From assembly GCA_018238155.1 (NCBI GenBank), contig JABCTZ010000046.1, forward strand, positions 96,001 to 160,000: DNA of 64,000 nucleotides, in the 5' to 3' direction. The translations under genes were made by a program, and so were the position numbers. Numbering within the stretch: position 1 is the stretch's first letter; each line of letters starts with the position of its first letter. The stretch is from Candidatus Heimdallarchaeota archaeon. GTDB taxonomy: Archaea > Asgardarchaeota > Heimdallarchaeia > JABLTI01. Positions 33,817 to 37,449 of this stretch are shown piece after piece. The notes beneath the pieces are model-generated. The model saw nothing but the letters and a program-made list of their open reading frames with translations, made no database searches and was not told where the DNA came from.

Positions 33817-34929
33817 ATGACTCCAATAAACGGATCAAAAAAACAAATAGAAATAACAAATGGAAGTGGAGCAATTACATTCGAAAAGAAGTTCCGTTTT
33901 GCATCTATTAAGAGTCCCTTGGAGAATTTCGAAACTGTAGAACAAAAAATAGAATTTAGAAAAGATCCACTACTCAACCATTGATCTAGAATTAATACTC
34001 TTAGAGCAGAACGTATTAAACAAGCTGCAAGTTCAAATGAAAGCTTTCAAACAAATTTAGAAGATTTAATAATGAAATCTGGCCAAGAGTGCTTCTTTTG
34101 TCCTGAAAAAGTTTCAATATCTACTCCAAAATTCCCTGAAAAATTAGGTTTAGGAGATCGTGTTATTGTCGACAATTTCACTTTATTCCCTAATCTATTT
34201 GTTTTCTCTGAATTTCATGCGGTGGGAACATTGGGTGAACAACATTTCACTCAATTAAATGAAATTAATGGAACAACTTGGAAAAATGCTATTTTAGGTT
34301 CGATTAAATATTTTAAAGCAGTTTATAATTCAAACAAACAAGTAAAATATCCATCTTTTAATTTTAATTTTCTACCACCATCAGCATCCTCTATTCTGCA
34401 CCCCCATATTCAAATAATACAAGATATCAAACCAACTAAAATAATTGAAGAATTATTACTGAAATCAGAACAATATTACAAAGAAAATGGTAGCAACTAT
34501 TGGTTGGATCTAATCAATTCTGAAAAGTCGTTGAAAGATCGTTTTATTTCTGAAAATGATTTTATGTGTTGGATTGCAACATATTCTCCATTCGGTAAAA
34601 ATGAATTAACAGGTATAGTGAAATTAAATAAAACTGATTTAACTGAATTCACTGAAAAAGAAGCAGAGCTCTTCGGATTAGAAATTACAAAAGCATTATC
34701 AGCGCTATTTAATGGAAGAAATGCAAGATCAATTAACATGGCCGTTTTCTTAGGTCCTGTTGGAGAAAATCATTCAAATCATTATAAAATTAACGTGAAA
34801 ATTGTAACTAGACCAATATTAGTTCCCAATTATACTGCTGATGTTGGTTTTATGGAATTGCTTCACAATGAACCAATTACTGAAACCTCTCCTGAAGATA
34901 TTGCAAAATCTGTTAAAGAGTTCTTCTAA
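33817..34929 (+). pseudogene. galT: Galactose-1-phosphate uridylyltransferase family gene interrupted by an in-frame TGA at 33982-33984
   Basis: One continuous frame reads …IEFRKDPLLNH*SRINTLRAER…CFFCP…FPNLF…SILHPHIQ. The stop replaces the usual Trp of the RxDPLxxxW motif. Confidence 0.75.
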
Positions 34930-35170
34930 GAGTTCCCAGAAAATAATTGACGGTTTTATTATATTTGCTAGAAAAAAAACCTGATATGAGTGGATATCAC
35001 GAGCATTAAATCCAAAAGTCAAAATCAATTTTTTTCTATCTCCATTTCATTTACTCAAAATGTGGAGAGGTTATTCCCGTCTCTCGATTAAGGGCTTCCC
35101 AGGATGATAGAGAATAAGAGTAAAACAAAGTCTTCTAGCTAAATGAATTAAAAAGACTGTTTATTTTAGA

Positions 35171-35195
35171 AGGGGTGGGAGTGTAGGGGTCACAC
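35171..35195 (+). other. G-rich intergenic motif at the start of a purine-rich tract
   Basis: AGGGGTGGGAGTGTAGGGGTCACAC in an otherwise AT-rich region. Confidence 0.4.
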
Positions 35196-35374
35196 GCCAA
35201 AAAAATAGAAAGAAAAATGGAAACGAATAAGAAAAAGAAAAAAGAGGATAGCTAAAGACTTTTTAATCATAAAAAAAACAATAAACAATCAAAAGAAAGA
35301 AGAAATTCTTATTAAATGAAAAACGTAAAAGATAATAAGATAGACAGCGTAAAAAAAGAAGGAGATAAAAAGAA

Positions 35375-36334
35375 GTGAGTTTCCTAAGAAGATTAATCAG
35401 TGCCGATAAAAAGAAAAGCGGTGAGGATATAAGCTCAAAACAACACGTAGCAATAATAGGACTAGACGCAGCAGGGAAAACAACAATAGTAAAAAGAATA
35501 CTGCGGTCAGAATATACGCTGTCAAAACCAACGTTTGGAGTAAATATCGAAGTTTACAGATATAGAACATTGGAATTCATCGTTTGGGATTTAGGTGGTC
35601 ACGCCCCGATTCGCAAGACTCTTTGGAAGAAGTTTGTTACAAAAGCTCAGACTATTGTTTTTGTTGTTGATGCTTCTGATCAGAAGAGATTTCAGTTAGC
35701 CAAAGATGTTTTCTATGAAACTTTAGAAAACACTGATCCCAAAGCTCCTGTTCTTTTCTTGGCTAATAAATCTGATAAAGAAGATGCTGCCTCTTCTGTT
35801 GAGGTTATGGAAGCTTTAGATCTTCAACAAATGATTCGTCTTGATCGTCCTTTTAACATGTTTCGTTGCTCTGCTCTTACTGGCGAAGGTTTATTTCCCG
35901 CCTGGGATTGGTTAGTTGATATTGGAGCCAAGGATCAAGCTATTCCCACTTGGCATGTCAAAATCTTTTCAGCAGTTGTTTTTGATTCAAATGGTAAAGA
36001 ATTGGATCAATGCATTTTTGGCAATCCTACTCAACAAGCAAATGTTGCCACAGCTTATCGTGAATCTATAAGAGAAACTGAACGCTTTGCTAAACAAATG
36101 CGTGATTATAACGAAGCAGTTACTGTTCTTGAGATAATGAAAAATTATCAACTAGTGATTACTAAGAATAAGCTCTTTGTAATGGGTGTATTAATTGATG
36201 TCAATGACCCCGTTAGTAGAGTTTTAACAATTTCTAGCAGAATTTTCGAAGCAATTGAGATGGAATATCTTAAAGGTTTAAGTATTTCACTTCAAGAAGT
36301 TATCTCTAATTATTTTCCATTAGACTCTATTTAG
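35375..36334 (+). CDS. Arf-family small GTPase fused to a C-terminal longin/roadblock-like domain
   Basis: G1 GLDAAGKT, G2 PTFG, G3 WDLGGH, G4 ANKSD, G5 CSALTGEGL, and a ~120-aa beta-beta-alpha-beta-beta-beta-alpha tail. Confidence 0.9.
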   Translation: MSFLRRLISADKKKSGEDISSKQHVAIIGLDAAGKTTIVKRILRSEYTLSKPTFGVNIEVYRYRTLEFIVWDLGGHAPIRKTLWKKFVTKAQTIVFVVDASDQKRFQLAKDVFYETLENTDPKAPVLFLANKSDKEDAASSVEVMEALDLQQMIRLDRPFNMFRCSALTGEGLFPAWDWLVDIGAKDQAIPTWHVKIFSAVVFDSNGKELDQCIFGNPTQQANVATAYRESIRETERFAKQMRDYNEAVTVLEIMKNYQLVITKNKLFVMGVLIDVNDPVSRVLTISSRIFEAIEMEYLKGLSISLQEVISNYFPLDSI

Positions 36335-36483
36335 AGTCTTTTTTCATTTATCTCTTCTTCAAAATCTTTATTTTGTGTTATTGATAATATATACCGATAA
36401 GCATTTATTTGGTACTACAATTCATCAATATGAGAGCACTTTTTGTTTATTGAAAAATCAAGGATGAGAATGGACGTAGTAAT

Positions 36484-37449
36484 ATGAAGGCATCAAAAAA
36501 AGCGATTGAATCATTTGCAAAATACTTGAGCAAGGATAATCATAAAGTTCCTTGGGTGCTTCTTATTGGTGAGAAAGGTTCTGGAAAAACAACTGCACTT
36601 TATTATCTCCTTTCTTCAAACAGAGACAAAATCTTTCCTGACACAGTCCTTAATTGGATTGATATTTCTTATGGTCAAGAGTGGTTTAAGCTCATCGATA
36701 TTGGAAATGAGATTTTAAACGATGAGAGTGTAATTGATTATTTTCTTTCAATTGCAGATGGCATTGTCTACGTTTTGAATGGAGAATCCGATGAGTCTCT
36801 TAGAAAATCTGTTGAACCCTTCCATGCTATTGTGGAGAAGATACCTTCTAATGTTCCCTTACTAACATTAGTGAACAAAAAAAGCCCTGAAAATAAAGTT
36901 AATCTTAGCCGAGTTTTAAGTTATTTTAATTTAGCTAAAATTTCTTCTCCAACGGACCCTCGTTCCTTTCATTTCGAAATTTGCACTATTTTGACTGGAG
37001 AAGGCATTTATCGTGGATTTGATTGGTTTATTTCAAAACTAATGCACTACGAAGGTTATCATGAGTATGTCACTATCCACCGTGTGTTAATTTATGATGT
37101 TAATGGCTTACTTGACTTTGATGCCCAGTTCTCAAATATCATGGATGATACGCAAGATGCTGTTCTTATAACAGGTTTGCTTTCTGCATTAAATTCAATG
37201 ACCAGGACACTCTTCAAAGATTCAAGTTTCTTGGATGTTGTAACTGTAGGTGATTATTCTATGGTTCTTGTTTCTCGCAATCAAAAGATCTGTTGCCTTT
37301 TTGTTGAACGAGGTGGAGCTATTGGTAAAGCAAAACAAATTGCTGAAATGATATTAGATATTTTCCTCATTGAGGGCGAGGAAGGAAGACTTGCTATTGA
37401 GAACCTTATTGATGAAAGTAAAAATAGTGATGAAACAATATCCGTTTGA
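36484..37449 (+). CDS. Degenerate Arf-like GTPase fused to a C-terminal longin/roadblock-like domain
   Basis: G1 GEKGSGKT, altered G3 (DIGN), altered G4 (NKKS), CTILTGEGI..GFDW, and tail VLIYDVNGL…DAVLITGLLSALNSM. Confidence 0.8.
   Translation: MKASKKAIESFAKYLSKDNHKVPWVLLIGEKGSGKTTALYYLLSSNRDKIFPDTVLNWIDISYGQEWFKLIDIGNEILNDESVIDYFLSIADGIVYVLNGESDESLRKSVEPFHAIVEKIPSNVPLLTLVNKKSPENKVNLSRVLSYFNLAKISSPTDPRSFHFEICTILTGEGIYRGFDWFISKLMHYEGYHEYVTIHRVLIYDVNGLLDFDAQFSNIMDDTQDAVLITGLLSALNSMTRTLFKDSSFLDVVTVGDYSMVLVSRNQKICCLFVERGGAIGKAKQIAEMILDIFLIEGEEGRLAIENLIDESKNSDETISV

What the first reader, a model, noticed from the sequence alone, without database searches (positions are those of the whole stretch)
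35171..35917. Abrupt purine-to-pyrimidine strand switch in synonymous sites of the Arf gene
Seen (hand count): in 35435-35569, 22 of 23 fourfold-degenerate codons end in A/G. In 35582-35917, 48 of 50 end in T/C. The purine tract extends upstream through the intergenic DNA to the G-rich motif at 35171-35195. This gives a roughly symmetric ~400 bp R-rich / ~350 bp Y-rich structure centred near 35575 that protein sequence cannot explain. Inference: a cis-acting chromosomal site or a strand-specific mutational footprint (origin or terminus, SMC/partition loading, R-loop or unwinding site).
Basis: partly seen in the sequence, partly recalled or inferred. Interest (0 to 1): 0.7.

Follow-up and report, generated by a model that had tools for sequence, protein, structure and literature searches.

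The report
Purine-to-pyrimidine strand flip inside GTPase gene
Inside an Arf-like GTPase gene of an Asgard-type archaeon the freely evolving codon positions flip within about 20 codons from almost all A/G to almost all T/C; this is real, persists in several related species, and has the same polarity as flips that flank this genome's tRNA genes, so it looks like the trace of an undescribed local process that treats the two DNA strands differently.

Summary
Fourfold-degenerate sites are 22 R / 1 Y in 35435-35569 and 2 R / 48 Y in 35582-35917 (Fisher p 1.6e-14 for the slightly wider left interval 35375-35577, 24 R / 3 Y). On a split fitted to this gene, it ranks first of 2,642 genes.

It is not an assembly chimera. 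Independent assemblies of three other lineages carry the same flip, at codon ~68-72 or ~41. At least seven other orthologues lack it. Silent sites are saturated between these lineages, so the pattern is being actively maintained.

The bias also covers the ~200-nt leader. It fades over the rest of the gene and the next gene, and in relatives it reaches the upstream gene.

Genome-wide, strong flips are almost all R-to-Y (19 against 2). Of 41 tRNA genes, 35 sit at a flip of that polarity, whichever way the neighbouring genes point. This site has no tRNA or known RNA gene.

It is not a chromosomal origin or terminus: there is no contig-scale skew turn and no Orc1/Cdc6 gene nearby.

Best reading (about 0.45): a site-anchored, DNA-level asymmetry in substitutions in which the strand running away from the anchor loses purines. 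The process behind it is not identified.

This scan has noted tRNA-anchored and intragenic flips before, in other Asgard genomes. I found no published description.

The parts
35171..35374 (+). Purine-rich, T-poor non-coding leader or intergenic part of the left arm (R .77, A .57). It begins with G clusters at 35171-35195.
   Evidence: Composition. The three other flip lineages also have a longer, A-rich upstream region, with intergenic lengths of 322 to >480 nt against 174-247 nt in orthologues without the flip.
35375..35577 (+). Left arm inside the CDS, codons 1-68. Fourfold sites are 24 R / 3 Y. Arg is AGA, Ile is ATA, Leu is CTA/CTG, and C is preferred to T at twofold Y sites.
35560..35600 (.). 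Switch point X, codons ~63-75, at the WDLGGH (G3) motif of the GTPase.
   Evidence: The transition is complete within about 20 codons. It lies at codon ~68 in G009, ~72 in contigs L050/L051 and ~41 in G005.
35582..35959 (+). Intense right arm. Fourfold sites are 53 Y of 56. Arg is CGT, Leu is CTT, and A is partly replaced by G in Lys/Gln/Glu codons.
35960..37449 (+). Fading right arm: the rest of the Arf-like gene, a T-rich spacer and the next GTPase-like gene, with R4 of about .28-.33.
   Evidence: The downstream gene is also Y-shifted in flip lineages (.33.30.34.43) compared with .34-.50 (mean .44) in the others.
35375..36334 (+). Arf-like GTPase gene that hosts the flip: 319 aa, GTG start, conserved GGAG ribosome-binding site.
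   Evidence: Pfam Arf, E 6e-43. Start and SD are conserved in all orthologues.

Best explanation
The flip is a local, DNA-level asymmetry in how the two strands accumulate substitutions, anchored at a point about 200 nt inside the gene (window ~35575).

On both sides of the anchor, the strand that runs 5'->3' towards it stays purine-rich and avoids T. The strand that runs away from it is pyrimidine-rich and avoids A. The effect is strongest next to the anchor and fades over 0.4-2 kb. Purifying selection keeps the protein intact, so the bias shows at silent sites and in the leader.

This genome shows the same polarity around its tRNA genes, regardless of gene direction, and at about a dozen further sites that have no tRNA. 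This locus is one of those tRNA-less anchors.

What is shown: the pattern itself, its persistence after silent sites have fully turned over, its spread beyond the gene, and the shared polarity with tRNA-anchored flips.

What is inferred: the cause is a recurrent, outward-directed event at the anchor that leaves the outward-running strand single-stranded more often. Repeated starts or restarts of DNA synthesis would do this, because the outward-running strand would then be the lagging-strand template. Purines lost from that strand would be replaced by pyrimidines, as happens when depurinated sites are bypassed. The event and the chemistry are hypotheses.
For: - Extreme and abrupt: 24R/3Y changes to 2R/48Y, p 1.6e-14; rank 1 of 2,642 genes.
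- Nucleotide-level, not tRNA-level. The left arm also prefers C over T where only T/C are allowed (L050: 9 C, 3 T). The right arm shifts Lys/Gln/Glu codons from A to G (13 A: 9 G, against 19:4 in the rest of the gene).
- Non-coding DNA follows the bias: leader R .77.
- The arms cross gene boundaries. The downstream gene has R4 .30-.34 in three of four flip lineages. The upstream gene has R4 .65 in L050/51 and .57 in G005. In G009 the upstream neighbour is on the opposite strand, yet its plus-strand R4 is .63.
- Silent sites are saturated between lineages. Observed fourfold identity equals the expectation from composition: G000-L050 .64 against .60, G000-G005 .51 against .54. The pattern is nevertheless kept in G000/G009, L050/51 and G005, with different switch codons.
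- Genome-wide polarity: 19 R>Y against 2 Y>R at D>=0.5, and 14 against 0 with 60 sites per arm.
- 35 of 41 tRNA genes show R>Y, mean 0.129, against 0.00 +/- 0.076 at random places. Genes of both orientations follow the DNA strand: left arm .558 and .591, right arm .418 and .469.
- At C13:164.9 kb the bias climbs .65.79.94.97 towards the anchor across genes on both strands, then flips to .11 and .16.
- Highly expressed genes (thermosome, EF-1alpha, ribosomal proteins) have R4 of only .30-.55, so codon optimisation cannot give .04.
Against: - At this locus every gene within the arms in G000 is on the + strand. Orientation independence therefore rests on one weak case in G009 (.63, about 1.3 SD) and on analogy with tRNA sites.
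- In G000 the left arm stops sharply at 35171, and the upstream gene is unbiased (R4 .46). A simple distance-decay model does not predict that. A tract bounded by a transcription start would.
- Nothing recognisable sits at the anchor: no tRNA, no Rfam family, no repeat, no conserved sequence shared by the lineages whose switch codon differs.
- No reads or RNA data could be obtained, so neither a mutational spectrum nor any event at X has been observed.
- Replacement of purines by pyrimidines on an exposed strand is a chemical argument from general knowledge. It was not tested here.
Confidence: 0.45

Rival explanations
1. Selection on the messenger RNA. The first ~400 nt of the transcript (long leader plus codons 1-68) are kept purine-rich and U-poor so that they stay unstructured and free of oligo-U terminators. 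The following U/C-rich stretch acts as a termination-prone or pause-prone zone, an attenuator that couples transcription to translation, or reflects preferred codons.
For: - In G000 the purine tract starts sharply where the leader starts and lies wholly within the presumed transcription unit.
- All flip lineages have a longer, A-rich leader.
- Y-ending codons are mildly preferred in highly expressed genes, R4 .30-.35.
- Most strong flips lie inside genes. Read along the mRNA, they always go R then Y.
Against: - No highly expressed gene approaches R4 .04.
- There is no general 5' purine enrichment: the metagene profile is .51 in the first 10 codons and flat at about .475 afterwards.
- The bias acts on nucleotides, not on tRNA choice.
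- It continues into the next gene and, in relatives, into the upstream gene, including one on the opposite strand.
- tRNA-anchored flips of the same polarity ignore gene direction.
- The purine and pyrimidine tracts do not pair with each other more than segment-wise shuffles do: 61 left-right pairs against 102 +/- 28.
- At least seven orthologues do without the pattern.
Confidence: 0.25
2. Mosaic origin. One or both tracts were imported by recombination from strongly strand-biased DNA, such as the purine-rich mobile elements of this genome.
For: - The purine tract has almost the same base composition (A .50, G .21, C .11, T .18) as the purine-rich strand of the mobile-element family at C13:164875-166095 and C43:12144-13388 (A .48-.49, G .23, C .12, T .17).
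- Many biased segments lie in mobile or defence islands.
Against: - The encoded protein is collinear with the orthologues and 82-94% identical to them in both tracts.
- The only other similar DNA in the genome is a 71%-identical paralogue that has no flip.
- The pattern is present in lineages whose silent sites are saturated relative to each other, with different switch codons. One import cannot explain it, and repeated imports of two oppositely biased pieces would be needed.
Confidence: 0.08
3. A canonical chromosomal replication origin or terminus lies at ~35575.
For: Under the usual reading in which the lagging-strand template is the exposed strand, the polarity (A>T on the left, T>A on the right) is that of an origin-type skew jump (my own reasoning from the counts).
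Against: - There is no inflection of cumulative GC, AT or purine skew at 131.5 kb on the 383-kb contig.
- The Orc1/Cdc6 genes are on contigs C45, C6 and C27 only.
- No repeated origin-box-like elements were found.
- The effect fades within 2 kb rather than extending over a replichore.
- There are dozens of equivalent sites.
- The site sits inside a conserved gene, and its position differs between species.
- Published cumulative-skew analyses report no bidirectional pattern in complete Loki-, Heimdall- and Odinarchaeia genomes (PMC11291895).
Confidence: 0.03
4. Chance, or an artefact of assembly.
For: None beyond prior caution about metagenome-assembled genomes. This genome has an estimated 5.9% contamination.
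Against: p 1.6e-14. The same flip is present in G009, G005 and two metagenome contigs from other projects.
Confidence: 0.01

Closest known systems
tRNA-anchored mirror-image strand skew of Asgard archaea. This is noted by this scan in other genomes (e1-548089, e1-1924631, e1-5395107) and shown here for this genome. I found no published description.
   Same: Same polarity (purine-rich strand points at the anchor), same R/Y axis, kb-scale fading, rewriting of silent sites and crossing of gene boundaries.
   Different: There is no tRNA gene or any known RNA gene at this anchor. The anchor lies inside a protein-coding gene. The left arm is short and sharply bounded. The local intensity is higher than at all but one tRNA site.
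Skew jumps at replication origins: bacterial and archaeal oriC, and the upward jumps bounding human N-domains (own knowledge: Lobry 1996; Touchon et al. 2005; Huvet et al. 2007).
   Same: An abrupt sign change of strand composition at a point, with A>T on the left and T>A on the right.
   Different: Those jumps are a few percent in size and persist for tens to thousands of kb, on a G/T against A/C axis. Here the bias exceeds 90% at silent sites, fades within 2 kb, runs on a purine/pyrimidine axis, and has no Orc1/Cdc6 gene or contig-scale signal.
Transcription-associated strand asymmetry at gene 5' ends (own knowledge: Green et al. 2003; Polak & Arndt 2008).
   Same: A local, kb-scale, strand-specific substitution bias linked to a transcription unit.
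   Different: That bias starts at the transcription start and keeps a single sign along the gene. Here the sign flips about 200 nt inside the coding region, and at tRNA sites it ignores the direction of neighbouring genes.
Codon ramp and unstructured 5' coding regions (own knowledge: Kudla et al. 2009; Tuller et al. 2010).
   Same: Different synonymous codon use in the first tens of codons.
   Different: Ramps are weak statistical trends over 10-50 codons across many genes. This genome has no such trend, and the effect here includes non-coding DNA and neighbouring genes.
GRINS, genetic repeats of intense nucleotide skew (own knowledge and earlier scan notes: Nivina et al. 2021).
   Same: Very intense local skew inside coding DNA.
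   Different: GRINS are repeated modules homogenised by gene conversion. This tract has no second copy in the genome.

Membership tests
Archaeal chromosomal replication origin | Adjacent Orc1/Cdc6 initiator gene | tested here: not met
   Cdc6_C matches occur only on C45, C6 (two) and C27. None is on contig C7.
Archaeal chromosomal replication origin | Replichore-scale inflection of cumulative skew | tested here: not met
   10-kb profile of the 383-kb contig shows no turn at 131 kb.
Archaeal chromosomal replication origin | Repeated origin recognition boxes flanking an AT-rich unwinding element | tested here: inconclusive
   Only short, composition-driven repeats were found in 34900-36400. No model of Asgard origin boxes was available.
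tRNA-anchored mirror skew (Asgard) | R-to-Y polarity, with the purine-rich strand pointing at the anchor on both sides | tested here: met
tRNA-anchored mirror skew (Asgard) | A tRNA gene at the switch | tested here: not met
   There is no tRNA in the whole window and the nearest on the contig is 232 kb away. There is no Rfam match.
tRNA-anchored mirror skew (Asgard) | Bias independent of gene orientation | tested here: inconclusive
   All G000 genes in the arms are on the + strand. In G009 the opposite-strand upstream gene has plus-strand R4 .63, about 1.3 SD. The feature is met at tRNA sites.
tRNA-anchored mirror skew (Asgard) | Fading over kilobases across gene borders | tested here: met
   The right arm goes .04, then .28.33 and .44. 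A left arm reaching into the upstream gene is seen in L050/51 and G005.
Translational codon optimisation or ramp | The same codon preference, at least as strong, in highly expressed genes | tested here: not met
   Thermosome .32-.34, EF-1alpha .35, ribosomal proteins .30-.55, against .04 here.
Translational codon optimisation or ramp | A general 5' trend across genes | tested here: not met
   Metagene R4 is .51 in codons 1-10 and flat afterwards.
GRINS or gene-conversion module | Multiple near-identical copies | tested here: not met
   The only other match is a single paralogue at 71% identity.
Small-GTPase family trait | The flip at the G3 motif recurs across paralogues | tested here: not met
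   29 paralogues: mean difference .06, 16 positive, p .26. One Rab-like gene (C45:5326-5991) does flip at the same motif.

The most novel reading that the evidence does not exclude
The R-to-Y flips, this one included, mark places where DNA synthesis repeatedly starts or restarts and moves outward. They occur at tRNA genes and at a dozen or more other anchors. If so, silent-site skew gives a fossil map of dispersed, possibly transcript-primed or recombination-dependent, initiation sites in Asgard archaea, a group whose complete genomes mostly lack a replichore-type skew.
Probability: 0.2. Interest if true: 0.9.

Novelty: new variant of a known kind. Interest (0 to 1): 0.66.

Why it matters
Nothing is known experimentally about how the closest archaeal relatives of eukaryotes start, restart or protect DNA replication. 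Published skew analyses find no replichore pattern in Lokiarchaeia, Heimdallarchaeia or Odinarchaeia.

Here a local process rewrites more than 90% of silent sites, in mirror image, around defined points. It recurs at tRNA genes and is kept for longer than silent sites take to saturate. A strong and long-lived cause of that kind can be looked for directly, by nascent-strand, R-loop or RNA-end mapping in the few Asgard cultures that exist.

There are practical consequences too. Such fields distort codon-usage statistics, tests for horizontal transfer and synonymous-rate estimates in these genomes. The present case shows they can sit inside a conserved eukaryote-signature gene.

Tried and rejected
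- Long RNA or DNA hairpin between the purine and pyrimidine tracts. The fold of 35171-35960 is only 1.9 SD below segment-wise shuffles and has fewer left-right pairs than they do. The inverted repeat centred on X (35464-35490 / 35651-35677, 74%) is what complementary compositions give. Rejected.
- Known RNA families in 34800-36500 and at 13 other tRNA-less flips: none found. tRNA scans of those places and of the window: none found.
- Small-GTPase family trait: rejected.
- General 5' purine ramp: rejected.
- Codon optimisation: rejected as the sole cause.
- Contig-scale origin or terminus: rejected.
- Promoter idea. By eye, the leaders of the flip lineages carry words like AAAGACTTTTTAA that resemble the box upstream of this genome's tRNA genes, and TATA-like words lie just before X. 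A weight matrix built from 42 tRNA upstream regions gave no hit above the 90th percentile of all genes in G000's leader or near X in any lineage. Inconclusive; not used as evidence.
- Sigma-70 type promoter scan: not applicable to archaea. It did find a hairpin plus T-run at the gene's stop, 36322-36339.
- Public sequencing runs: none was listed for 34900-36400, and no RNA holder was listed. Read support and expression therefore could not be examined.
- Literature: four searches found no description of such local purine/pyrimidine flips or of tRNA-anchored skew in archaea.
- Antisense ORF 35397-35570 (57 aa, hydrophobic): treated as a by-product of a purine-rich sense strand, which lacks the complements of stop codons.

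Full report
**What is there.** The window is G000:C7:96001-160000 of a 4.08-Mb, 32% GC, 46-contig archaeal genome. ORF 35375-36334 (+) is an Arf-family GTPase (Pfam Arf, E 6e-43) with an unassigned C-terminal half. A second, weaker Arf-like gene follows at 36484-37449. The GTG/TTG start and a GGAG ribosome-binding site are conserved in all orthologues.

**The observation.** My recount reproduces the hand count exactly. Fourfold-degenerate sites are 22 R / 1 Y in 35435-35569 and 2 R / 48 Y in 35582-35917. They are 24/3 over codons 1-68 and 15/38 after 35918. Genome-wide these sites are A .40, T .41, C .11, G .08. Fisher's exact p is 1.6e-14. The purine tract continues upstream to 35171 (R .77, A .57 in 35171-35374).

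Among 2,642 genes, this one has the largest difference between silent-site purine content of codons 5-68 and codons 69-195: +0.83, about 6 SD, with the next gene at +0.52. That split was tailored to this gene. In an unbiased scan with 40 silent sites per arm, it ranks third in the genome.

The structure is less symmetric than described. The left edge is sharp at ~35171. The right arm is extreme to ~35960 and then fades: R4 is about .28 in the rest of the gene.33 in the next gene and .44 in the one after.

**It acts on nucleotides, not on tRNA choice.** In the left arm, Arg is AGA, Ile is ATA, Leu is CTA/CTG, and C is favoured over T at twofold sites. In the right arm, Arg is CGT, Leu is CTT, and Lys/Gln/Glu codons shift from A to G. 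The rule is that the left arm avoids T and the right arm avoids A on the + strand.

**It is not an artefact, and it is maintained.** Orthologues from ten related genomes and seven metagenome contigs were compared.
- The same flip is present in G009 (94% protein identity, switch at codon ~68).
- It is present in contigs L050/L051 (83%, switch at ~72, only 1 R among the next 72 sites).
- It is present in G005 (85%, switch at ~41).
- One contig (L052) has only the purine-rich 5' part.
- At least seven others, including four close relatives of G005, have no flip.

In a weakly resolved protein tree the flip lineages do not form one clade.

Between these lineages, fourfold sites are saturated. Observed identity equals what composition alone predicts, for example .64 against .60 and .51 against .54. 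The pattern is therefore not a relic of common descent. A directional force has kept acting, or has arisen more than once, at this locus, and the switch point can move.

All flip lineages also have a longer, A-rich upstream region.

**It reaches beyond the gene.** The downstream gene is Y-shifted in three of the four flip lineages (.30-.34). The upstream gene is R-shifted in L050/51 (.65) and G005 (.57). In G009 the upstream neighbour lies on the opposite strand, and its plus-strand R4 is .63. These shifts are modest, 1-2 SD of the gene-to-gene spread of .084.

**Genome context.** Sixty silent-site segments in the genome are strongly skewed. Many lie in mobile or defence islands.

When silent sites are read on the + strand, strong switches are almost all R-to-Y: 19 against 2 at a difference of >=0.5 with 40 sites per arm, and 14 against 0 with 60 sites per arm. 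In the noise range the two directions are equal, 897 against 945. Shuffling silent sites within genes leaves 9.4 against 1.7. About half of the strong switches therefore come from neighbouring genes with opposite overall bias, and half are truly intragenic.

Of 41 tRNA genes, 35 have a purine-rich left flank and a pyrimidine-rich right flank. The mean difference is .129, against .00 +/- .076 at random positions. The effect fades by 3-4 kb, does not depend on tRNA orientation, and holds for genes of both orientations in each arm (.558 and .591 on the left.418 and .469 on the right).

The strongest case is at C13:164.9 kb. There the bias climbs .65.79.94.97 towards a tRNA-Val across genes on both strands and then flips to .11 and .16. 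So this genome has a DNA-level process with exactly the polarity of the finding.

The finding itself has no tRNA and no Rfam match, and neither do 13 other strong flips.

**What it is not.**
- It is not a chromosome-scale origin or terminus. The contig shows no skew inflection and the Orc1/Cdc6 genes lie elsewhere. This agrees with the published remark that complete Loki-, Heimdall- and Odinarchaeia genomes lack a bidirectional cumulative-skew pattern (PMC11291895).
- It is not codon optimisation. Thermosome, EF-1alpha and ribosomal-protein genes have R4 of .30-.55.
- It is not a general 5' ramp.
- It is not a trait of small-GTPase genes (29 paralogues, p .26), although one Rab-like gene, C45:5326-5991, flips at the same WDxGG motif.
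- It is not a long hairpin.
- It is not a repeated module.

**Mechanism.** The geometry is this: on both sides, the strand running 5'->3' away from the anchor is depleted of purines, above all of A.

One process acting outward from the anchor explains both arms, the fading with distance, the spread over non-coding DNA and neighbouring genes, and the shared polarity with tRNA sites. Explanations by selection need a different rationale for each arm.

Among outward-polar processes, the lagging-strand template of forks that start or restart at the anchor fits the whole left arm, including the sense-transcribed leader. Exposure of the non-template strand by outward transcription does not fit, because the heavily sense-transcribed leader and 5' coding part are purine-rich on their non-template strand. 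The same holds for the A-rich leaders in front of many tRNA genes.

Loss of purines from single-stranded DNA, followed by bypass that inserts purines opposite the gap, would convert purines to pyrimidines on the exposed strand. This is general chemistry and was not tested here.

I put 0.45 on a site-anchored mutational field of this kind, and about 0.2 on the specific reading that DNA synthesis repeatedly starts there.

The main rival, at 0.25, is selection on the transcript: a U-poor, unstructured first 400 nt followed by a termination-prone U/C-rich zone. It is favoured by the sharp left edge at the start of the leader in G000, and by the fact that all genes in the arms are co-oriented in G000.

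**Novelty.** I found no published description. This scan has noted tRNA-anchored flips, and one intragenic flip in leuS, in other Asgard genomes. One of those notes was later marked as in doubt, for reasons I could not see. The tRNA effect was re-derived independently here. What this locus adds is a tRNA-less anchor inside a conserved gene, with comparative evidence that the pattern is maintained beyond silent-site saturation, is variable between lineages, and can shift in position.

Noticed in passing
G000:C13:165004-167483 and G000:C43:10740-13213 (outside the window); related pieces at C6:45353-45990, C13:175888-176666, C13:178332-178934, C42:36365-37026: A family of purine-rich mobile-element-like modules. 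Each has a 627-aa protein with an N-terminal winged-helix domain plus a ~190-aa Lys/Glu-rich ORF, and abuts the 3' end of an intron-containing tRNA gene. The C6 copy sits just upstream of an Orc1/Cdc6-like gene.
   Followed up: partly
G000:C42:22705-24888 (outside the window): An EF-2-like gene with 282 of 306 fourfold sites ending in T/C (R4 .08). It is preceded on the same strand by two genes with R4 .74 and .80. This is the second strongest flip in the genome, with no tRNA nearby. The other EF-2 family gene (C17:51937-54045) is unbiased (.46).
   Followed up: partly
G000:C45:5326-5991 (outside the window): A Rab-like small GTPase gene flips from purine- to pyrimidine-ending codons at its WDTGGQ motif, the same structural position as in the Arf-like gene. 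It ranks second in the genome for the 5'/3' contrast.
   Followed up: partly
window 35317-35379: A 20-codon Lys-rich upstream ORF whose TGA stop overlaps the GTG start of the GTPase gene (GTGA). It is not conserved in the closest relative, G009.
   Followed up: no
window 35147-35158 and 35256-35267: A 12-nt inverted repeat (11 of 12 complementary) brackets the G-rich motif and the first A-rich stretch of the leader. The repeat word resembles the promoter-like box seen upstream of this genome's tRNA genes.
   Followed up: partly
window 36322-36339: A hairpin followed by a T-run lies exactly at the stop codon of the Arf-like gene. This suggests the two tandem GTPase genes are separate transcription units.
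   Followed up: no
whole genome G000: Over half of the 43 tRNA genes found by ARAGORN carry an intron. One tRNA-Met call (C21:101013-102478) has a 1,378-nt insert.
   Followed up: no
L010 (G009:C49), upstream of the orthologous gene: In the closest relative, the upstream neighbour is a different, oppositely oriented gene. A rearrangement has therefore occurred right at the left edge of the purine tract.
   Followed up: no
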